From positions 23,942 to 87,941 of the forward strand of contig JAUXSB010000014.1 of the NCBI GenBank assembly GCA_030681595.1: 64,000 bases of DNA. The letters run 5' to 3'. Position 1 is the stretch's first letter. Each line of letters opens with the position of its first letter. Shown piece by piece: positions 2,017 through 63,250 of this stretch. A program made the position numbers and the translations under genes. This DNA comes from Candidatus Omnitrophota bacterium. GTDB lineage: Bacteria; Omnitrophota; Gorgyraeia; Ghiorseimicrobiales; Ghiorseimicrobiaceae. A model generated the notes under the pieces. The model saw only the letters and a program-made list of their open reading frames with translations. It did not search any database and was not told the DNA's origin.

Positions 2017-2364
2017 CATGCTTTACGAATTCCTACTTTTTATACGGAATACGGCAACCCGACTACCATATCCCGACGCAACGTGGCTTTGGCTATTATC
2101 GAACGCCAAACCACTACCATCTGGCTTGTCGGAACTTAGGCTCGCGGCTTTACGCCCTATCTTTTCAGATAGTTTGCCTTTATCCCGTTAGAGGCCTTTC
2201 TAAAATATATTTATAATACCGTTTTTGGCAATACTCACCTCTAAAGGGCATATTTTCATTACATATTTCAAAGAGCTTCTGTGGCTTGGGCTATTCGGAG
2301 GCCCAACCACTGCCTTCTGGCTTGTCGATTTCTTAGCTTAAGTATACCACATAAATAAGATATT

Positions 2365-10751: not shown

Positions 10752-11588
10752 TTATTCCTTTCGTGATAATTCTTTCGCACGCTTAACTGCTGCCTTAACC
10801 GCATCGGTTAAAGTACCGCCTTTATGCAATGCTTCTAAGCCTGCTTCGGTTGTGCCGCCCTTAGAAACAATGCTCCATTTAAATTTCGAAGGCTCTTCAC
10901 CCAAAAATTGCACCGTAACCAAAGTACCAATAGCTGTTGAACGAGCTAATAGCTTAGCATCTTTCCTGTTAAAACCTATTCCTTCGGCTGCAACAGTAAA
11001 CTCTGGAATAAATACTTCTTGGCTATATTTTTCCCACTGATCTTTAGGCTTATCCTCTAGACGTTCGCACCAAAATCCCGGCCCGCTTCCGGATACCGCG
11101 GTCGCCGCATCCATCATGTCCTCGTTTAAAATTAATGTCTTTCCTAAATTATCAAATAATTTTTTAGCAAATATAACGTCTCCTTTGCTTGCGAATTTCC
11201 CCTTGCACAGACAACTCATGCCTCTACCAATTCTTGCCGGCATATTCGGCATCACCCTCACCACCCGCACGTTACCCAACTGCTTCTCAATATAATTTGT
11301 AGTTATGCCGGCGGCGATAGAAACAAATAATTTGTTTTTCCAACAATCTTTGACCTCGCCTAAAACAAAGTCAAAATCTTGAGGTTTAACAGCCAATATA
11401 ATAACATCAGCATTTTTTGCCAATTCAGAACTATTTTCTGATAACTTTACGCCTTTAAACCTATTTACCTTCTCTTTATCCTTATCAAAAACAAAAAGAT
11501 GATACTTACGCTTAATGCGTTCTGCAATCGCCGAACCCATATTTCCGGCGCCGATTATTCCAATCTTTTTCCGAAAATTTTTAAACAT
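10752..11588 (-). CDS. proC: Pyrroline-5-carboxylate reductase
   Basis: N-terminal Rossmann motif IGIIGAGNMGSA; conserved yggS-proC linkage. Confidence 0.85.
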   Translation of the reverse strand: MFKNFRKKIGIIGAGNMGSAIAERIKRKYHLFVFDKDKEKVNRFKGVKLSENSSELAKNADVIILAVKPQDFDFVLGEVKDCWKNKLFVSIAAGITTNYIEKQLGNVRVVRVMPNMPARIGRGMSCLCKGKFASKGDVIFAKKLFDNLGKTLILNEDMMDAATAVSGSGPGFWCERLEDKPKDQWEKYSQEVFIPEFTVAAEGIGFNRKDAKLLARSTAIGTLVTVQFLGEEPSKFKWSIVSKGGTTEAGLEALHKGGTLTDAVKAAVKRAKELSRKE

Positions 11589-12343
11589 CAGCTGCCAAAT
11601 ATAGCCCTTCCGATTCTAACTATTGTAGCTCCCTCTTCTATCGCCACCTTGTAATCCTGGCTCATACCCATGGACAAAATTCCCAATTCCCAATTCCCAA
11701 TTCCCAATTTAACAACAATCTTTTCCTTGAGCTCTCGTAACATCTTAAAATATGGACGGGCTTCTTCTGGATTGTTTGATAGGGGCGCTATCGTCATCAG
11801 GCCATTTATGCGGATATTTTTAAACTCGGATGCCTTTTTTATAACCTCAATCGTTTCATCGGGTTTTAACCCGAATTTTGTTTTTTCACCCGAGGTATTT
11901 ACTTCTATTAAAATATCCTGAATTTTATTTATTTTTTTAGCCTGCTTATTTATTTCCTCCGCCAAATGCTGGCTGTCCACCGAATGAATCAAATCAAAGA
12001 TCCGCACAGCCTCTTTTACCTTATTGGTCTGCAAATGGCCGATCATGTGCCATTTTAGAGTATTGCGTATTGCCTGCCCGAATGACCGCGCCCGACTGAA
12101 CGTCGTTCGGGCGGGAGTCAGGCGGGGGTGTTGGGTATTGAGTTGATTATACTTGATCAGCGCTTCCCGGACTTTATTTTCGCCGAGGTCAAATATTCCC
12201 GCGTTTATCGCTTCTTTAATCTGCGCTAAATTTGCTTCTTTGACTACCGCAATCAAGGTAATCTCGCCCGGGCTTCTTTTTACTTTCCGGCAAACAAACT
12301 CTATTTCCTCGCGTACGCGCAGGACATTCTCTTTTGGGACCAT
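11588..12343 (-). CDS. yggS: YggS/YlmE-family PLP homeostasis protein carrying two in-frame repeat insertions
   Basis: Conserved LSMGMS and HxIGHLQTNK motifs; extra segments NQLNTQHPRLTPARTTFSRARSFGQAIRNT and LGIGNWELGIL are encoded by repeat DNA. Confidence 0.8.
   Translation of the reverse strand: MVPKENVLRVREEIEFVCRKVKRSPGEITLIAVVKEANLAQIKEAINAGIFDLGENKVREALIKYNQLNTQHPRLTPARTTFSRARSFGQAIRNTLKWHMIGHLQTNKVKEAVRIFDLIHSVDSQHLAEEINKQAKKINKIQDILIEVNTSGEKTKFGLKPDETIEVIKKASEFKNIRINGLMTIAPLSNNPEEARPYFKMLRELKEKIVVKLGIGNWELGILSMGMSQDYKVAIEEGATIVRIGRAIFGS
11678..11710. repeat. Heptamer tandem array (AATTCCC x4 plus partial) inside yggS
   Basis: Direct reading; encodes LGIGNWELGIL immediately before the conserved SMGMS motif. 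Confidence 0.8.
12073..12128. repeat. GC-rich palindromic element (family shared with 30921..31050 and 62960..63120) inserted in frame in yggS
   Basis: cctgcccgaatgaccgcgcccgactgaacgtcgttcgggcgggagtcaggcggg with self-complementary arms; near-identical copies in two intergenic regions. Confidence 0.75.
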
Positions 12344-30889: not shown

Positions 30890-31250
30890 TCCTATTGCTT
30901 CAAGCGAAAAATGCAAACTTGCCGCGCCCGACCTGCCCGAATGACCGCGCCCGACTAGATGTCGTTCGGGCGAGAGTCAGGCGGGCTGAATGTCGTTCGG
31001 GCGGGCGCTTATTTTTCGCGCGATGCCCCGCCACAAAGCGTTGGCGGGCAGGCCGCGAATCCTTTAAATGAAACCATAAGTTATGGAAGCCTAAAGGCGA
31101 CATAACTTATTTGGTTGAATTTATCCCGATACTTGCAAGAAAATTTAGAATAAATTTTTGCAGTGTTTTAGTATCGGGGGCGGCACAATGGAAAAATTAA
31201 ACCTAACTTTATGTATTACAATGGATAGAATATGGCTGAGATTGTACGTT
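30890..31250. repeat. Composite intergenic repeat: GC-rich palindromic units (30921..31050) plus two-hairpin module (31076..31178)
   Basis: Near-identical to 62940..63250; module related to the leaders at 52686..52934, 54032..54268 and 62214..62370. Confidence 0.7.
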
Positions 31251-32184
31251 AACGCAGGATTGACCGGGCTTTGGTGATATCCCGTTTTATCTGAAAAGAA
31301 AGAAGATCCAGGGAAGGAAATTGCCTCTCTTGCCGTATCTTTTTGATAAATTCTATTTCTACTTCTCGGTTATAAATATTCCTATGAAAATTCAAAATAT
31401 ATACTTCCAGGCGCGGCCTCCGGTAGCCAAAATGCAATGTGGGGCTGGTCCCTATATAGGCTGCGCCATTAAATTTTTTATTTTTTATTTTTGTCTTTAC
31501 CGCGTAAACTCCTGCCGGAGGGATAATTTCATGCCCTACATCAATATTCGCCGTATGGTAACCCAATTTTCTCCCCACTCGCCTCCCTTTAACTACCCTG
31601 CCCAAAACAGAAACATTCCTGCCTAAGTATTTTTTCGCCAAATCTAACTTGCCGTTTTTTATCAAAGCACGGATAAATGTGCTGCTGATAACCCTACGGT
31701 TTAATTTTAAAGGCGCGATTGCCTTTAGCTTAAAATTGTATCTCTCCGCCATAACTTTAAGTAAATTTATTCCTCCTGAACCTCCTCGCCCAAAAGTAAA
31801 ATTATTCCCCACAAATACGGCCGCAGGATTGACTTTTTTCTTTAACAACTCTATAAAATGTCCCGGGCTAATTTCTGAAAAATGACGATTGAAATTTATG
31901 ATAATGCAGGTGTCAAGGCCTAAGCCTGCGATAAGTTTTAAGCGATGCTCTAATGAAATCAGGTGCACAAAAACATTTTTTGAGCTTAAAATTTTTTCCG
32001 GATGCGGATAAAAGGTAACACAAACACTATTTTTATCGGCATCCTTGGCTTGACGTAACATAGCCTTCAGGATATACTGATGGCCCAAATGCACGCCGTC
32101 AAAAATGCCTAAAGCAACATATGGCCTGTTAAGATTTTTGATTTTCTTTCCAAGGCCGTAAATGACTCTCATTAACTTCCTCAA
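31249..32184 (-). CDS. ribF: Bifunctional riboflavin kinase / FAD synthetase
   Basis: ALGIFDGVHLGHQ nucleotidyltransferase motif and C-terminal riboflavin kinase region. Confidence 0.85.
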   Translation of the reverse strand: MRKLMRVIYGLGKKIKNLNRPYVALGIFDGVHLGHQYILKAMLRQAKDADKNSVCVTFYPHPEKILSSKNVFVHLISLEHRLKLIAGLGLDTCIIINFNRHFSEISPGHFIELLKKKVNPAAVFVGNNFTFGRGGSGGINLLKVMAERYNFKLKAIAPLKLNRRVISSTFIRALIKNGKLDLAKKYLGRNVSVLGRVVKGRRVGRKLGYHTANIDVGHEIIPPAGVYAVKTKIKNKKFNGAAYIGTSPTLHFGYRRPRLEVYILNFHRNIYNREVEIEFIKKIRQERQFPSLDLLSFQIKRDITKARSILR

Positions 32185-37464: not shown

Positions 37465-40747
<3,283 letters not shown>

Positions 40748-40849
40748 AATTTACAGAACGACAGTGAATGTAAATTGTATGTACGAATTTATCCCGCCGA
40801 ATGTGTAAAAATTGTAGTATAGAATTTTTACACATTTTATGAGGCGGGA

Positions 40850-41122
40850 TTAAAATCGAATCCCAAAATCCTTAAACTCTCCGGTGGCAGGTTGCCACTG
40901 AATATCTTTATCCTGAAGATATTCAGAAAAGCTTTCTTCTATTTTTTTAAGAAAATCTTTCAGGGTTCCTTCTTCCGCTTCAGCCGCTAATTCTACCCTG
41001 CCGTCGCGCAGGTTTTTCACCCAACCGCCGACTCCCATATCTCGCGCAATATCTTCGGCAGTGTAGCGAAACCCCACCCCCTGGACTCTCCCGCTATAAT
41101 AAACATGCGCTTGTTTTCTCAT
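40850..41122 (-). CDS. acyP: Acylphosphatase
   Basis: VYYSGRVQGVGFRY and GWVKNLRDGRVE motifs; upstream part of the ORF-track frame overlaps the tRNA and is not coding. Confidence 0.75.
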   Translation of the reverse strand: MRKQAHVYYSGRVQGVGFRYTAEDIARDMGVGGWVKNLRDGRVELAAEAEEGTLKDFLKKIEESFSEYLQDKDIQWQPATGEFKDFGIRF

Positions 41123-41127
41123 ATAAT

Positions 41128-41205
41128 TGGTCGGGAAGGGCGGACTTGAACCGCCGACCTCTTGCTCCCGAAGCAAGCGCTCTAGCCAAACTAAGCTACT
41201 TCCCG
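41128..41205 (-). tRNA. tRNA-Pro (anticodon CGG), CCA encoded
   Basis: Hand-folded reverse complement CGGGAAG-TA-GCTTAGTTTGGCTAGAGC-GC-TTGCT-TCGGGAG-CAAG..GGCGGTTCAAGTCCGCC-CTTCCCG-ACCA: 7-bp acceptor stem, GTTCAAGTC T-loop, anticodon loop TTCGGGA. Confidence 0.85.
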
Positions 41206-41357: not shown

Positions 41358-42668
41358 TTAAACTACGGATTCCTTGTTTGAATAAAGGCTGTCCAGCGGG
41401 CTTTTTGGGGCATTACTCATATTCCGCAGGACATGCGTATAAATCATCGTTGTTTCAACATTATTATGGCCCAAAAGCTCCTGCACTTCCCTGATGTTCA
41501 CCCCATTCATCAAAAGATGAGTAGCAAAACTGTGCCGCAAAGTATGAACAGAAACGCGTTTAACAATACCTGCCGCGTCTGCCGCTTTTTTAACTGCCTG
41601 CTGGATAGATTTATCGCTTATATGGTGGCGGCGCGCCTTGCCGCTTCTTGGGTCAACGGAAAGGTTAGGCGAAGGAAAAACATATTGCCAACGCCAATCT
41701 TTCGCGGCATTAGGATATTTGCGCGAAAGCGCGTCCGGTAAATATACCTCGCCATAGCCGGCTTTTAGGTCTTTTTCACGCAACTCTTTAACCCTCTCAA
41801 GATGAAGGCATAAATCATTTTTAATTTTATCAGGAAGCATAGTAGTCCTGTCTTTATCCTGTTTAGCCGCGCGGATAAATATTGTATTTGAGCTAAAATC
41901 AATATCCTGAACCCGCAAGCGCGCAAGCTCCATCAACCGAAGGCCTGAACCATAAAGTAACTGCATAATAAGCCGCCCTTTGCCTTCTATGTGCCTGAAT
42001 AATGCTTCAACTTCCCCTATTGTCAAAACCGTAGGCACTTTTGACCCGCGTTTTGCCCTGACCGCCTTATCCAAATCCTTGAGTTCAACCTCAAGCACCT
42101 CACGGAATAAAAATAAAAGCGCGTTAAACGCCTGATTCTGCGTGGAAGACGAAACCCGCCTTTGGATAGCCAAATAACTTAAGAAATTTCTCACGTCTTC
42201 TGAACCTAGCCTACCATCTTGGGCGCCCTTTTTCTTTACCTCTTCAATATAAGCGTAAAAACGCTTTGCCCAATCAGTGTATGAACGTTCTGTCTTGTAA
42301 GAATAATGCCTAAGCCGTATTGCCTCCCGCATTTTATTTATAATTTCTGAAATCGGCAGGGAAACTTTTTGAGGATTCAATAAATTTTCCTGGCGGGCAT
42401 CCGCGTTTTTTGACAAAAATTGCCCGGAATATAACTTTAGCGCTTCCTCTGCCTGTTTTATCTGCCAATCAGCAAACTCGCCCTGCGCCGCGAGACATAT
42501 CAAAAATTTCCTGATAAGCAAATCCCGGCTCTCTTCTCCGCTATTATTCGCAAAACCAAGGAATTTGCTTACCCAGCGCGCATAATATGAAACGCTCTTT
42601 TCAGGCACAAGTTTACGAGAAGTCAAAAACTCCTGAAATTCTGGCAAAACGTCACTAAGCATCTGCAA
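41358..42668 (-). CDS. intI: Integron integrase (IntI-type tyrosine recombinase); true start possibly near 42362
   Basis: C-terminal [12 protein letters not shown]...[16 protein letters not shown] catalytic box preceded by [40 protein letters not shown], which parallels the IntI-specific extra segment of IntI1 that XerC/D lack; divergent from downstream cassettes. Confidence 0.8.
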
Positions 42669-52445: not shown

Positions 52446-52685
52446 TTACTCAATAATATCTCCTATTACCGGTTCAACCACTACTCCGGCTTTTTCCAAA
52501 AATTTAATTCCTTTCTGCAGGTTTTCCTCTTTACCGTCTAATTCCAAGACTATCTCGCCGATTTTATCGGTTACCCGCGCTCTTCTAATATTCGGCATCA
52601 CGTCAAATTTCTTCGCCATCTGAAAAGTCAAAGGCTGTTTTATGGTTTCGCCGGTAAAAGTAAGTTTTACGATTTTTTTAGCCAT
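52446..52685 (-). CDS. Stand-alone NIL-domain protein
   Basis: VKLTFTGETIKQPL...FDVMPNIRRARV...GEIVLELDG...VVVEPVIG parallels the NIL domain at the C-terminus of MetN. Confidence 0.7.
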   Translation of the reverse strand: MAKKIVKLTFTGETIKQPLTFQMAKKFDVMPNIRRARVTDKIGEIVLELDGKEENLQKGIKFLEKAGVVVEPVIGDIIE

Positions 52686-52934
52686 TATTTATCCTTTCAA
52701 TGAGCGCATAACTTACGAATACACAGTATGAGTAAGTTATTTGCGCGAATTGATGCCGAAAGCTACGGGAAAATTTAGTATAAATTTTCGCAGTGTTTTG
52801 CTTTCGGCGCAATGCATAACTTACGAATACACAGTATGAGTAAGTTATTTGCGCGAATTAATCCCGATAGCTACAAGAAAATTTAGTATAAATTTTCGCA
52901 GTGTTTTGCTATCGGGGCCAATTAAATATTCCTG
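52686..52934 (-). promoter_or_regulatory. Two tandem copies of a two-hairpin leader module immediately upstream of the NIL gene start
   Basis: Each copy: hairpin ataacttac-N15-gtaagttat, then GC-clamped stem (gccgaaagc/gctttcggc in copy 1, cccgatagc/gctatcggg in copy 2) enclosing AT palindrome gaaaatttagtataaattttc; ends in the Shine-Dalgarno context of the gene. Confidence 0.55.
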
Positions 52935-53750
52935 TTATTCCATCTCTTCTTTTATCTGACAAGCCTGCTGTTCATAATCTACTAACTTAGTAATCGTAGG
53001 GTGATCCGAGCAAACCGCGCAGTCATTATCTTTGGGCACCTTGACTGTGCGAAAAGTTGAGGTAAGCGCGTCAAAGATAAGCAGCCTCCCTGTTAATAAT
53101 TCCCCGATACCCAAGATAAATTTTAAAACCTCATTTGCCTGCAATACCCCCAGGATACCGGCTACCGCGCCCAATATACCCCCTTCCTGGCAAGAAGGCA
53201 CTGCTCCCGGAGGGGGCGGTTCAGGGAAAAGGCAACGATAACACGGCCCGGCCTTCGGTAATATAGTCATAATCTGGCCGTCAAACCTGAAAATTCCCGC
53301 ATGCACAAGCGGCTTTTTAGTCATCACGCAGGCATCGTTTACCAAAAAACGGGTAGGAAAATTATCGGTTCCGTCTACGACTATATCATAATTTTTAAGT
53401 AAAGCTAAAATATTTTCTGAATTTATCCTAAGGTTATAAGCATCAACTTTTACATCCGGGTTAAGCTCGGAAAGCCGCCTTCTGCCTGATTCTGCCTTAG
53501 GCATCCCCACACTAGGAGTGCTATGAATAATCTGGCGTTGCAAATTATTCACTTCAACTTTATCGGAATCCACCAAACCAATCCTACCTACGCCAGCCGC
53601 CGCCAAATAAAGGGCGCTTGGAGCGCCTAAACCGCCTGTGCCGATAATCAGCACTTTAGCATTTAAGAGTTTCTCCTGCCCCTTTCCGCCCACTTGCGGA
53701 AGGATAATCTGGCGTGAGTAGCGCTCAATCTGTAAATCATTTAAACTCAT
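52935..53750 (-). CDS. ThiF/MoeB-family E1-like adenylyltransferase
   Basis: GTGGLGAP nucleotide-binding motif, zinc-binding CYRC and CAVC pairs; no rhodanese domain. Confidence 0.85.
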   Translation of the reverse strand: MSLNDLQIERYSRQIILPQVGGKGQEKLLNAKVLIIGTGGLGAPSALYLAAAGVGRIGLVDSDKVEVNNLQRQIIHSTPSVGMPKAESGRRRLSELNPDVKVDAYNLRINSENILALLKNYDIVVDGTDNFPTRFLVNDACVMTKKPLVHAGIFRFDGQIMTILPKAGPCYRCLFPEPPPPGAVPSCQEGGILGAVAGILGVLQANEVLKFILGIGELLTGRLLIFDALTSTFRTVKVPKDNDCAVCSDHPTITKLVDYEQQACQIKEEME

Positions 53751-54031
53751 TATTCTGAACCTCCGGCTATAGCAGGGATAATTGATACTTCATCATTATT
53801 TTTCAATTCTGTGTCATATCCTTTTAAAAAACGGATATCTTCGTTGTTGACATAAAAGTTAATGAAACGGCGGATTTTACCGTTTTCGTCGCAAATCCTT
53901 GCTTTTACCCCGGGGAAACGTTTTTCCAGATCATCCACCAGTTCATTAATATTACCTGCTTCAACTTCTACCTCTACCTTATTCTGCGTCAATTTCTGCA
54001 GGGGTGCCGGGATTCTCACTTTTATAGACAT
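53750..54031 (-). CDS. ThiS/MoaD-like sulfur-carrier protein with 2-residue extension beyond Gly-Gly (..IAGGSE)
   Basis: 93-aa protein ending AGG-SE; stop overlaps the ThiF/MoeB start. Confidence 0.65.
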   Translation of the reverse strand: MSIKVRIPAPLQKLTQNKVEVEVEAGNINELVDDLEKRFPGVKARICDENGKIRRFINFYVNNEDIRFLKGYDTELKNNDEVSIIPAIAGGSE

Positions 54032-54268
54032 ATTTTTATCCTTTCAATGAGCGCATAACTTACGAATACACAGTATGAGTAAGTTATTTGCGCGAATTGA
54101 TGCCGAAAGCTACGAGAAAATTTACAATAAATTTTCGAGCGTTTTGCTTTCGGCGCAATGCATAACTTACGAATACACAGTATGAGTAAGTTATTTGCGC
54201 GAATTGATGCCAAAGCCTACGCAATCCCGAAATTTCAGGACAAGCGTTTAGGCAAGGGGCGCTACCAT
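54032..54268 (-). promoter_or_regulatory. Leader module (one full copy plus a partial second copy) immediately upstream of the sulfur-carrier gene
   Basis: Same ataacttac/gtaagttat hairpin and gccgaaagc/gctttcggc stem around palindrome gaaaatttacaataaattttc. Confidence 0.55.
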
Positions 54269-61487: not shown

Positions 61488-62213
61488 TTAAATTCCCGCG
61501 CCCTGGGTGTTTGTCTTAAGCGGCCGGGTGTGTATGCCGCATTCGCCACCGCATTTTGAAGTGCCTATCCAGCGGCCGGAACGCTCGTTTTCATCGCTTG
61601 AAATATGTGTGCATGGTGCGCATCCCAATGAACGGTATCCCGCCGCGTAAAGCGGGTTAACAAGGACTTGATATAAAGCCAAGTACTGCCAAACTTCGCG
61701 CTCTTTCCAGATTAATATAGGATTAAGCTTAACTAACCCCTTATCCCTTTCCTCCACTTCCTTATAGTCAGTGCGGGTCCTGCCTTCGGTGCAGCGTAGC
61801 CCCGTTACCCAACATGTTACATGCATTTCTTCTACAGCACGCTTTACCGGCTCAACCTTAAGTATATCGCAGCATTTATCCGGATCGGTTTTATAAAGGT
61901 CATTTGAAATTTGGGCATGGCTTTCATAAACTTTTAATTCCGGATAACGGGCCACGGCTTCATGCATAAACTTTTTGGTCTCCGCCGGCTTAAATCTGGT
62001 AGTAACAATAAACCCCTTTATCTTCGGGTTTACCTTTTTGGCTAAATCCCAGACTGCTACCGAATCCTTACCTAAACTGTTTGCTACGACTAAACCATCC
62101 TTATACTTTTTATAAGCCTCTTCGATAAGCGCAAGCGACCTATCTACTTTCTCTTTAAAGTTTAGCTTCTCCACCAATTCCTTTAAATCATCCTTGTTGT
62201 TTAATAAACTCAT
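61488..62213 (-). CDS. cysH: APS/PAPS reductase-family protein (with CC...CxxC cysteine signature)
   Basis: PP-loop-like SLGKDS, C-terminal ECGIH motif, Cys pairs (KCC, CAPC); probable start MSLLNNK, since the ORF-track N-terminus runs through the leader repeat. Confidence 0.8.
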   Translation of the reverse strand: MSLLNNKDDLKELVEKLNFKEKVDRSLALIEEAYKKYKDGLVVANSLGKDSVAVWDLAKKVNPKIKGFIVTTRFKPAETKKFMHEAVARYPELKVYESHAQISNDLYKTDPDKCCDILKVEPVKRAVEEMHVTCWVTGLRCTEGRTRTDYKEVEERDKGLVKLNPILIWKEREVWQYLALYQVLVNPLYAAGYRSLGCAPCTHISSDENERSGRWIGTSKCGGECGIHTRPLKTNTQGAGI

Positions 62214-62370
62214 TTTACTTTTCCTTTCAATGAGCGCATAACTTACGAATACAGAGTATGAGTAAGTTATTTGCGCGAATTGATGCCGAAAGCTACGAGA
62301 AAATTTACAATAAATTTTCGAGCGTTTTGCTTTCGGCGCAATGCATAATCCCGAAGCTTCGGGATTACAG
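62214..62370 (-). promoter_or_regulatory. Leader module upstream of cysH, followed by the atcccgaagcttcgggat palindrome
   Basis: Same two-hairpin architecture and Shine-Dalgarno context as at 52686 and 54032. Confidence 0.55.
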
Positions 62371-62924: not shown

Positions 62925-62952
62925 AGTATACAATAAAAAAATATTTTGTCAA
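62925..62952 (-). promoter_or_regulatory. Sigma-70-type promoter candidate for the Rrf2 gene (TTGACA, 16-nt spacer, TATACT)
   Basis: Minus strand reads cgcTTGACAaaatatttttttattgTATACT about 30 nt upstream of the Rrf2 start. Confidence 0.45.
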
Positions 62953-63250
62953 GCGAAAAATGCAAACTTGCCGCGCCCGACCCGCCTGACTTCATTCGGG
63001 CAGGCTGAATGTCGTTCGGGCGGGCGCTTATTTTTCGCGCGATGCCCCGCCACAAAGCCCGCCACTAAAACATCAGCGGGTTCGCCTAAGATTTGTGGCG
63101 AACGTTGGCGGGCAGGCGCAAATACTTTAAATGAAACCATAAGTTATGGAAGCCTAAAGGCGACATAACTTATTTGGTTGAATTTATCCCGATACTTGCA
63201 AGAAAATTTAGAATAAATTTTCGCGGTGTTTTAGTATCGGGGCGCGGCGC
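62940..63250. repeat. Composite intergenic repeat (GC-rich palindromic units plus two-hairpin module), second copy of the 30890..31250 element
   Basis: Long stretches identical to 30900..31190; module stem cccgatact/agtatcggg around palindrome aaaatttagaataaatttt. Confidence 0.7.

What the first reader, a model, noticed from the sequence alone, without database searches (positions are those of the whole stretch)
52686..52934. Conserved two-hairpin leader module, including the ribosome-binding site, ahead of each sulfur operon, with compensatory stem changes between copies
The first genes of three operons (NIL at 52685, carrier at 54031, cysH at 62213) start directly after the same element, found at 52686..52934 (two tandem copies), 54032..54268 and 62214..62370. 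It has a hairpin ataacttac-N15-gtaagttat, then a GC-clamped stem enclosing a near-perfect AT palindrome (GAAAATTTA-N3-5-TAAATTTTC), then the identical context cgctcattgaaagg ahead of the ATG. The enclosing stem differs between copies but stays complementary (gccgaaagc/gctttcggc, cccgatagc/gctatcggg, and cccgatact/agtatcggg in the copies at 31076..31178 and 63136..63243). The hairpin arms are swapped in the latter copies. Structure is therefore conserved while sequence drifts, as for a cis-regulatory RNA or a structured operator rather than a decaying mobile element. The AT palindrome is a plausible binding site for the adjacent Rrf2 regulator. I did not recognise it as a known riboswitch.
Basis: seen in the sequence. 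Interest (0 to 1): 0.75.

Follow-up and report, generated by a model that had tools for sequence, protein, structure and literature searches.

The report
Modular hairpin repeat family of Omnitrophota
The "sulfur leader" is real and its hairpins are conserved, but it is one local cluster of a patchy repeat family that sits just before the start codons of all kinds of genes in Omnitrophota bacteria, so it is not a sulfur-specific switch.

Summary
A roughly 108-nt unit lies on the minus strand at all the stated places. It has a long hairpin P1 with an AT palindrome, an AATTCG linker, a hairpin P2, a CTCATT tail and a ribosome-binding site. I found one more, diverged copy at 40733-40849.

Base-pair covariation is strong once other genomes are included. 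It affects the P1 outer and inner stems, the P2 base, and a short A(A/G)U/A(U/C)U helix.

- The same module precedes EF-Tu, S7, S9, L29, IlvH, IlvC, UvrB-like, HU, GlmS-like and PNPase genes in at least 24 loci, mostly Omnitrophota MAGs.
- In the window it also lies between ribF and mraZ, and between acylphosphatase and a phosphoesterase.
- Five relatives with the same sulfur gene order lack it at these junctions. A sixth, L242 (87% identical DNA), lacks it at two window junctions and keeps a diverged unit at a third.
- P1 occurs in either orientation, and modules recombine as a mosaic.
- G·U pairs are no commoner than A·C mismatches.
- Rfam 15 has no match.

Best reading: an undescribed, dynamic, REP/MITE-like mosaic repeat that is co-transcribed in spacers between genes. 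It is not an Rrf2 operator or a sulfur riboswitch.

The parts
52863..52917 (-). P1 hairpin of the upstream unit at the ThiF-NIL junction. Outer arms CCCCGATAGC/GCTATCGGG; inner AT palindrome at 52877-52897.
   Evidence: Sequence; exact palindrome match; CM hit of 91.7 bits.
52814..52859 (-). AATTC linker plus P2 hairpin of the upstream unit (GCGCAaATAACTTAC-N15-GTAAGTTATGC). It is followed by ATT and then the next unit.
52755..52808 (-). P1 hairpin of the unit next to the gene. Arms GCCGAAAGC/GCTTTCGGC; palindrome at 52769-52789.
   Evidence: CM hit of 87.2 bits; predicted fold.
52686..52751 (-). AATTC, P2 (52704-52746), TCATT (52699-52703), Shine-Dalgarno GAAAGGA (52692-52698) and a spacer up to the NIL ATG at 52685.
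   Evidence: The MFE leaves the Shine-Dalgarno sequence unpaired; z = -4.8.
54201..54263 (-). Variant P1 (GCCTAaACGC..CCTGAAATTTCGGG..GCGTAGGC) starting right after the stop of the 417-aa PALP gene. It is homologous to the P1 at the same junction in the relative L242.
   Evidence: weak CM hit of 14.7 bits.
54160..54200 (-). P2 hairpin of the upstream unit at the PALP-ThiS junction.
54102..54154 (-). P1 hairpin, type A, with the palindrome at 54116-54136.
   Evidence: CM hit of 81.9 bits.
54032..54098 (-). AATTC, P2, TCATT, Shine-Dalgarno GAAAGGA and a spacer up to the ThiS-like carrier ATG at 54031.
62350..62363 (-). Small GC hairpin CCCGAAGCTTCGGG downstream of the Rrf2 gene. The same hairpin serves as P2 in the relative L242.
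62214..62340 (-). One full unit before cysH: P1 (palindrome at 62299-62319), AATTC, P2, TCATT and the Shine-Dalgarno sequence, up to the ATG at 62213.
   Evidence: CM hit of 81.9 bits.
63130..63244 (-). Type B unit (arms CCCGATACT/AGTATCGGG; P2 with swapped arms). No start codon follows it. It lies upstream of GC-rich repeats and the sigma-70-like promoter of the Rrf2 gene.
31067..31181 (-). Type B unit, 97% identical to the 63k copy, between ribF (31249-32184) and the mraZ promoter region. This is not a sulfur context.
40733..40849 (-). It exactly fills the gap between the acylphosphatase stop and the metallophosphoesterase start.
   Evidence: CM hit of 41.1 bits with filters off. Absent at the same junction in L242.

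Best explanation
The element is a local cluster of an undescribed family of modular hairpin repeats found in Omnitrophota.

Anatomy of a unit:
- P1: a long irregular hairpin with GC-rich outer arms and usually an AT-rich inner palindrome.
- P2: a module of the form AATTCG, hairpin, CTCATT.

Modules are shuffled, repeated in tandem, or arranged with dyad symmetry as inverted P2, P1, P2.

Copies are gained and lost on the timescale of species divergence. They survive almost only in the short spacers just upstream of start codons, pointing at the gene. There they are transcribed as part of polycistronic mRNAs.

What I infer but have not shown: in the mRNA, P1 and P2 fold into stable clamps that leave the Shine-Dalgarno sequence or the AUG unpaired just after the tail. 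The element would then be a tolerated, possibly co-opted, spacer between cistrons that may affect mRNA processing or stability. It is not a sensor. The conserved hairpins may equally reflect what the spreading mechanism requires at the DNA level. The element has no specific tie to sulfur metabolism or to the Rrf2 regulator.
For: Distribution:
- An exact-palindrome scan of one genome per species found 24 loci with the full architecture. Seventeen are labelled Omnitrophota.
- Metagenome contigs give further variants.
- The best ThiF homologues that carry a name are Omnitrophota.

Genes downstream are varied:
- EF-Tu, S7, S9, AHAS small subunit, KARI, a UvrB-like protein, HU, a GlmS-like protein and PNPase.
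- L29, which follows a 137-aa co-directional ORF that I take to be rplP (L16).

Position:
- 38 of 60 modules have a start codon 0-19 nt after the tail.
- Of the AATTC-type modules, 35 have a co-directional and 8 a divergent gene upstream, at a variable distance of 23-363 nt.

Structure:
- Covariation in P1, in the P2 base and in the flanking helix, where AATTC pairs with TCATT in 51 copies and AGTTC with TCACT in 8.
- The inner palindrome is swapped with compensation, for example GTAGATTTC/GAAATCTAC, or replaced by GC hairpins.
- Fold z-score of -4.8 with the Shine-Dalgarno sequence free.

Turnover:
- L242 (87% nt identity) has overlapping stop and start codons, TAATG and TGATG, where the window has elements.
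- L243 (78% identity) has elements at those and at other junctions. They are 90-96% identical to the window's, and P1 subtypes are exchanged.
- L244, L328, L329 and L330 (79 kb in all) have none.
- Assemblies break inside the repeat.

Signs of a DNA-level constraint:
- P1 occurs in either orientation relative to the gene, and composite copies have dyad symmetry.
- One-by-one mismatches are 8 G·U against 14 A·C, and the antisense strand folds on average 3 kcal/mol better.
Against: - No transposase, target-site duplication or clear termini were found, so mobility is inferred from presence/absence only.
- At one junction (ThiF-NIL) the difference from L242 looks like a deletion in L242, not an insertion.
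- Between the window and L243 the elements are more conserved (90-96%) than the flanking genes (78%). That fits functional constraint as well as an active repeat family.
- At least 10 essential-looking genes (ilvH, glmS-like, uvrB-like and others) start 0-5 nt after the tail without a Shine-Dalgarno sequence. This suggests that the element itself supports initiation, which a purely selfish insertion would not explain.
Confidence: 0.55

Rival explanations
1. A dedicated cis-acting RNA cassette with a general role after transcription. P1, linker and P2 would be recognised by a lineage-specific endoribonuclease or RNA-binding protein. That protein would cut polycistronic mRNAs, for example at AAUUCG or at the base of P2 (CUCAUU), leave a protective 5' hairpin, and allow initiation even without a Shine-Dalgarno sequence. 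On this reading the spread of the element is secondary to its function.
For: - Strict orientation and a 0-19 nt distance to start codons.
- Invariant unpaired motifs: AATTCG, a 2x2 UC/UC internal loop and CTCATT.
- Starts without a Shine-Dalgarno sequence directly after the tail in ilvH, glmS-like and uvrB-like genes.
- Location inside conserved operons: a 123-aa ORF (rpsL by position) to rpsG, a 706-aa ORF (fusA by position) to tuf, and a 137-aa ORF (rplP by position) to rpmC.
- Higher conservation than the flanking genes.
- A stable fold with the ribosome-binding site free.
Against: - No excess of G·U over A·C.
- P1 works in either orientation, so the conserved internal-loop sequence is not always in the sense RNA.
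- Close relatives do without the element at the same junctions.
- No partner protein has been identified.
Confidence: 0.2
2. A DNA-level control module. The AT-rich palindrome in P1 would bind a global dimeric DNA-binding protein or form part of an unusual, possibly bidirectional, promoter. P2 would then be the 5' UTR hairpin of the resulting transcript.
For: - Sequence-level conservation of GAAAATTTA-N3-TAAATTTTC across many genomes, and the symmetry of P1.
- Copies that lack the 5' arm but keep the palindrome (L055, L081).
- In L010 the whole 187-bp gap between the divergent acsB-like and infB genes is inverted P2, P1, P2, with no sigma-70 consensus.
- No G·U bias.
Against: - The palindrome scan required the palindrome, so its apparent conservation is partly built in. 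Copies found through the outer arms or through P2 carry other palindromes, GC hairpins or no P1 elaboration.
- The outer arms covary, which a protein site does not need.
- Elements sit inside tight ribosomal-protein operons, where no promoter is expected.
- The organism's recognisable promoters are canonical TTGACA/TATAnT and lie outside the element.
Confidence: 0.12
3. One reading: a sulfur-responsive leader or operator, with the AT palindrome bound by the adjacent Rrf2 regulator.
For: - Three junctions in the window's sulfur gene string and one site upstream of the Rrf2 gene carry the palindrome.
- Rrf2 proteins bind AT-rich inverted repeats of about this size. This rests on my own knowledge and was not tested.
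Against: - The same palindrome and module lie before non-sulfur genes in the window (31k, between ribF and mraZ) and before EF-Tu, KARI, HU, PNPase and PhoU-like genes elsewhere.
- Five relatives with the same Rrf2-cysH...ThiS-ThiF-NIL cluster have gaps of 3-18 nt at the ThiF-NIL junction.
- L242 lacks the element at ThiF-NIL.
- The 63k copy is about 250 bp upstream of the Rrf2 promoter.
Confidence: 0.03

Closest known systems
REP / BIME elements (repetitive extragenic palindromes; bacterial interspersed mosaic elements; REPINs) of proteobacteria
   Same: - Short extragenic hairpin modules in many copies.
- Modules combined as a mosaic, often in inverted pairs around a central motif.
- Co-transcribed in spacers between cistrons.
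- Stems kept by compensatory change between lineages.
- Patchy copy number between related genomes.
   Different: - REPs are anchored to the upstream stop codon or 3' end (PMC12306157). This family is anchored to the downstream start codon and includes or abuts the ribosome-binding site.
- The unit is larger (about 108 nt, two different hairpins).
- No RAYT-type gene and no conserved GTAG/CTAC tetranucleotide were seen.
- Found in a different phylum.
Correia/NEMIS and other MITE-like elements (own knowledge)
   Same: - 100-200 bp in size.
- Dyad-symmetric composite copies (inverted P2, P1, P2).
- An AT-rich centre.
- Inserted next to genes and co-transcribed.
- Presence/absence differences between close relatives.
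   Different: - No target-site duplication or defined terminal inverted repeats could be shown.
- Most copies are one-sided (P1 plus one P2) or tandem.
- Strong orientation towards the start codon.
MIRUs (mycobacterial interspersed repetitive units; own knowledge)
   Same: Repeats between cistrons, often in tandem, oriented with the flanking genes inside operons.
   Different: - MIRUs carry small ORFs that overlap the neighbouring stop and start codons. No such ORF is evident by eye in the sequence here.
- The hairpin structure dominates here.
Phage T7 RNase III sites and the plastid intercistronic expression element (PMC2230500, abstract seen). These are functional analogies only.
   Same: Structured spacers between cistrons that separate polycistronic mRNAs into stable, translatable units. 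P1 has the form upper stem, asymmetric internal loop, lower stem.
   Different: No cleavage has been shown here, and there is no sequence relationship. This is a comparison of how the element might work, not of family membership.

Membership tests
Any described RNA family (Rfam 15, including SAM and other sulfur-related riboswitches) | A covariance-model match at or near the family's gathering score | tested here: not met
   The whole window at gathering threshold gives only c-di-GMP-I and a tRNA. A permissive scan of 52640-52950 gives only chance-level hits with E >= 3.
Rrf2-family operator (CymR/IscR-type regulon site) | The site is restricted to the promoters of a coherent regulon and is conserved at orthologous promoters | tested here: not met
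   The site is found before EF-Tu, ribosomal-protein, ilv, HU, PNPase and uvrB-like genes, and between ribF and mraZ. It is absent from orthologous sulfur clusters and lies between cistrons.
Rrf2-family operator | A fixed palindromic recognition sequence | tested here: not met
   The inner palindrome is replaced by GTAGATTTC/GAAATCTAC, GTGTnAAAATT/AATTTTnACAC, GC-rich hairpins or plain hairpins.
Rrf2-family operator | Binding by the Rrf2 protein | not testable with these tools
   This needs an EMSA or a footprint.
REP/BIME/REPIN | A short imperfect palindrome, extragenic, in many copies per genome, combined as a mosaic | tested here: met
   At least 8 P2 modules at 6 junctions in 64 kb. Mosaic and tandem combinations. 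The genome-wide number was not measured.
REP/BIME/REPIN | Placed mainly 3' of genes, near the upstream stop codon | tested here: not met
   The distance to the downstream start codon is fixed at 0-19 nt, while the distance to the upstream gene varies from 23 to 363 nt.
REP/BIME/REPIN | A cognate RAYT (Y1 HUH transposase) gene in the genome | not tested
   I did not screen the window or the loci for Y1 transposase genes. Only about 30 of the window's ORFs went through Pfam, and none was one. The only recombinase seen is a 436-aa tyrosine recombinase at 41358-42668. Whole genomes were not available.
MITE | Terminal inverted repeats and a target-site duplication | tested here: inconclusive
   Composite copies have inverted P2-type modules at both ends (AATGAG...CTCATT), but no duplication is visible at the flanks. 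Empty-site comparisons gave one probable deletion and one clean indel between TAA/TGA and ATG.
Integron attC sites | R''/R' core sites RYYYAAC/GTTRRRY, a position 3' of promoterless cassettes, and an array next to intI | tested here: not met
   By eye, the P2 stems contain ATAAC/GTTAT but do not fit GTTRRRY. The flanking genes are core housekeeping genes in conserved operons.
Structured cis-acting RNA (generic) | Covariation that preserves pairing | tested here: met
Structured cis-acting RNA (generic) | G·U tolerated on the transcribed strand far more than A·C | tested here: not met
   8 G·U against 14 A·C among one-by-one mismatches. The sense strand is the more stable one in only 12 of 60 elements. 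The sample is small and includes related copies.

The most novel reading that the evidence does not exclude
The family is a natural, mobile 'ribosome-binding-site cassette'. It would be a phylum-specific structured RNA module, recognised by a dedicated endoribonuclease or RNA-binding protein. That protein would cut operon transcripts at the base of P2, stabilise the downstream piece, and permit initiation without a Shine-Dalgarno sequence a few nucleotides after CUCAUU. It would amount to a built-in operon insulator that spreads through the genome.
Probability: 0.15. Interest if true: 0.8.

Novelty: new variant of a known kind. Interest (0 to 1): 0.5.

Why it matters
Omnitrophota are uncultivated, mostly tiny cells with compact genomes. 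A repeat family that occupies roughly one gene junction in ten in some lineages and none in sampled regions of their relatives bears on three things.

- It marks rapid genome change in these lineages.
- It is a practical cause of broken metagenome assemblies.
- It is a possible handle on how these organisms organise operon expression. Essential genes start directly after the element without a Shine-Dalgarno sequence, which is unexplained and can be tested.

For annotation, the result warns against reading locally clustered repeats as pathway-specific riboswitches. Here the apparent regulon was produced by looking at a single window.

Tried and rejected
- Rfam at gathering and at permissive thresholds: nothing.
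- Sigma-70 promoter and terminator scans of the junctions, and of the L010 divergent gap: no consensus promoter or intrinsic terminator inside the element. By eye, -10-like hexamers occur in some P1 loops (TATACT, GATAAT, TACAAT), but no consistent -35 box. I rejected sigma-54 and sigma-28 readings by inspection.
- Metagenome scan anchored on the P1 outer arms: it mostly hit an unrelated tandem palindrome, CCCGATAGCTATCGGG, in other taxa. Only about 20 true elements were recovered.
- Viral contigs: 83 matches to a 15-nt pattern, none with the architecture.
- Model R1 (P1 only) with default filters finds few diverged copies. A search combining a regular expression with folding of the P2 module worked better. 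My first regular expression was wrong.
- Target-site duplications: not found.
- A TTTTAA motif upstream of P1 turned out to be part of a genome-specific repeat, not a general feature.
- Similarity of the CUCAUUAA tail to antitermination boxA, to integron attC sites and to the IHF consensus: considered from memory and not pursued, because the fit is loose.
- Literature searches for Omnitrophota RNA motifs or palindromic repeats found nothing relevant.
- Looking up the window's cysH product by exact sequence found no record.

Full report
**What is there.** The genes of this region lie on the minus strand. Read on that strand, the finding is a repeat of about 108 nt. Each unit has these parts:
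- P1, a long hairpin. Its GC-rich outer arms (GCCGAAAGC/GCTTTCGGC, CCCGATAGC/GCTATCGGG or CCCGATACT/AGTATCGGG) enclose an asymmetric internal loop and the palindrome GAAAATTTA-N3-TAAATTTTC.
- A short linker ending in AATTCG.
- P2, a second hairpin (GCGCAaATAACTTAC-N15-GTAAGTTATGCGC) with a one- or two-base bulge on its 5' side.
- The tail CTCATT, then GAAAGGA and, 6-9 nt further on, the ATG.

The two hairpin patterns occur 5 times each, against 0.04 and 0.00 expected from shuffles.

**Gene context in the window.** Pfam gives this co-directional string: Rrf2, cysH, PHO4-type permease, PALP, JAB, ThiS, PALP, sulfite reductase-TusA, PALP, ThiS, ThiF, NIL, Thi4, DUF6775/DUF7001, NifU, PfkB.
- The elements lie between Rrf2 and cysH, between the 417-aa PALP gene and ThiS, and between ThiF and NIL. 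They are therefore spacers inside one gene string rather than leaders of three separate operons.
- The type B copies lie upstream of the Rrf2 promoter (63k) and between ribF and mraZ (31k).
- A covariance model of P1, run with filters off, found a further, diverged copy at 40780-40851. Together with its P2 it exactly fills the gap between the acylphosphatase stop and the metallophosphoesterase ATG. No Shine-Dalgarno sequence follows it.

**It is not specific to sulfur genes or to this genome.**
- An exact scan for the palindrome in one genome per species returned 118 loci. Twenty-four of them have the whole architecture. Seventeen of those are labelled Omnitrophota, two 'Planctomycetia', and five are unnamed MAGs.
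- The window itself is Omnitrophota. The best ThiF homologues that carry a name are named so, and the closest (unnamed) is 93% identical.
- The genes that directly follow the module include EF-Tu, S7, S9, L29, the AHAS small subunit, KARI, a UvrB-like helicase, HU, a GlmS-like amidotransferase and PNPase. Others I read by eye from the N-terminal sequence: IF-2, PhoU, ArgB, IlvB and an ABC ATPase.
- Of 60 P2 modules, 38 have a start codon opening a long ORF 0-19 nt after the tail. Twenty-five of these are at 7-19 nt, mostly behind AAGGAGG-like sequences. Thirteen are at 0-5 nt with no Shine-Dalgarno sequence; they include the ilvH, glmS-like and uvrB-like genes, whose N-termini leave no doubt about the start.
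- The AATTC-type modules have a co-directional gene upstream 35 times and a divergent gene 8 times, at variable distance. The family is thus anchored to the downstream start codon, whereas REP elements are anchored to the upstream stop (PMC12306157).

**The structure is under selection.**
- On 45 P1 copies aligned to the model, 12 of 19 pairs show changes on both sides and 96.6% of cells are paired. No shuffle in 500 reaches this, and slid registers collapse to 34-48%.
- A two-base helix inside the internal loop switches between A-U and G-C.
- Copies found through the outer arms carry other inner stems, such as GTAGATTTC/GAAATCTAC and GCAGATTTC/GAAATCTGC, or GC-rich hairpins. Copies found through P2 have type C P1s or plain GC hairpins.
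- The base of P2 is Watson-Crick in 59-60 of 60 copies, with mixtures of CG, GC and AT; shuffles give 21-23.
- AATTC goes with TCATT in 51 copies and AGTTC with TCACT in 8, with a single exception. This defines a three-pair helix outside a conserved 2x2 UC/UC loop.
- One unit folds at -40.3 kcal/mol (z = -4.8) with the ribosome-binding site unpaired.
- No Rfam family matches.

**The family is dynamic and modular.**
- L242, a syntenic relative with about 87% nucleotide identity, has ThiF and NIL overlapping (TAATG) and acylphosphatase and phosphoesterase overlapping (TGATG). The window has elements at both places.
- At the ThiF-NIL junction, the window and the more distant L243 share the flank after the ThiF stop, so L242 probably lost the element. 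The other case is a clean indel between stop and start.
- L243 (about 78% identical in genes) carries elements before cysH, ThiS, NIL, NifU and an AsnC-type gene. They are 90-96% identical to the window's, but P1 subtypes are exchanged and remnants are embedded in a gene's 3' end.
- L244, L328, L329 and L330 (79 kb from four further species with the same sulfur cluster) contain none. Their ThiF-NIL gaps are 4-18 nt. A fifth gene map, for which no DNA was returned, has a gap of 3 nt.
- P1 occurs in either orientation relative to the gene. Inverted P2-type modules flank it in about ten copies, giving dyad-symmetric composites of 167-211 nt. AGTTC/TCACT modules are never followed by a start codon.
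- Metagenome contigs carrying the window's ThiS gene end inside the repeat.

**RNA or DNA?**
- The element must be transcribed where it sits inside ribosomal-protein and ilv operons.
- The pairing shows no RNA signature, however. One-by-one mismatches are 8 G·U against 14 A·C, and the antisense strand folds better in 48 of 60 elements.
- Together with the orientation-independence of P1, this favours a constraint that acts on DNA (spread, or recognition as a hairpin or palindrome), or at least not only on the sense RNA.
- Against a purely selfish reading stand the high conservation and the starts that lack a Shine-Dalgarno sequence.
- In L010 the entire gap between the divergent acsB-like and infB genes is inverted P2, P1, P2, with no sigma-70 consensus. 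This keeps a promoter role for P1 alive as a minority view.

**Verdict.**
- The regulatory interpretation (sulfur leader, Rrf2 operator) is not supported.
- The best description is a previously undescribed, Omnitrophota-wide but patchy family of modular hairpin repeats. They lodge just upstream of start codons and are co-transcribed.
- It is closest in kind to REP/BIME, MITE-like and MIRU elements. It differs from them in being anchored to, and often supplying, the ribosome-binding site.

Noticed in passing
window 12073-12126; also 30932-31039 and 62996-63058: A GC-rich repeat family. The 12.1k copy lies in frame inside a 251-aa ORF (11588-12343, minus strand) that looks YggS-like by eye. It adds about 18 residues (HPRLTPARTTFSRARSFG), which recalls the Rickettsia palindromic elements.
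   Followed up: partly
window 30893-30940 and 62942-62989: A repeat of about 48 nt that ends in a -35-like TTGA(C/A), just upstream of mraZ and of the Rrf2 gene. At the Rrf2 gene it forms TTGACA-N16-TATACT. It may be a portable promoter fragment.
   Followed up: no
window 2050-2188 (-), with the repeat 2099-2131 / 2295-2327: A c-di-GMP-I riboswitch (67 bits). A partial direct repeat 196 nt away may be a second, diverged aptamer in tandem.
   Followed up: no
window 41131-41205 (-) and 41358-42668 (-): A tRNA gene next to a 436-aa tyrosine recombinase (PF00589 plus PF13495). This stretch is not syntenic with the close relative L242, so it may be an integrated element.
   Followed up: partly
L146, L199, L230 and many other metagenome loci: The 16-bp perfect palindrome CCCGATAGCTATCGGG occurs in tandem arrays with short spacers in contigs that lack the element's other features. 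It equals the two P1 outer arms joined together. Whether it is related is unknown.
   Followed up: no
L022:3247, L080:6834, L111:3262, L173:1739, L182:188, L209:631; window 40735: Housekeeping genes start 0-5 nt after the CTCATT tail with no Shine-Dalgarno sequence, only 5-10 nt from a stable hairpin. How they are translated is unexplained.
   Followed up: partly
L001-L003: Public short contigs that encode the window's ThiS protein all end inside the repeat, which shows that this family fragments metagenome assemblies.
   Followed up: yes
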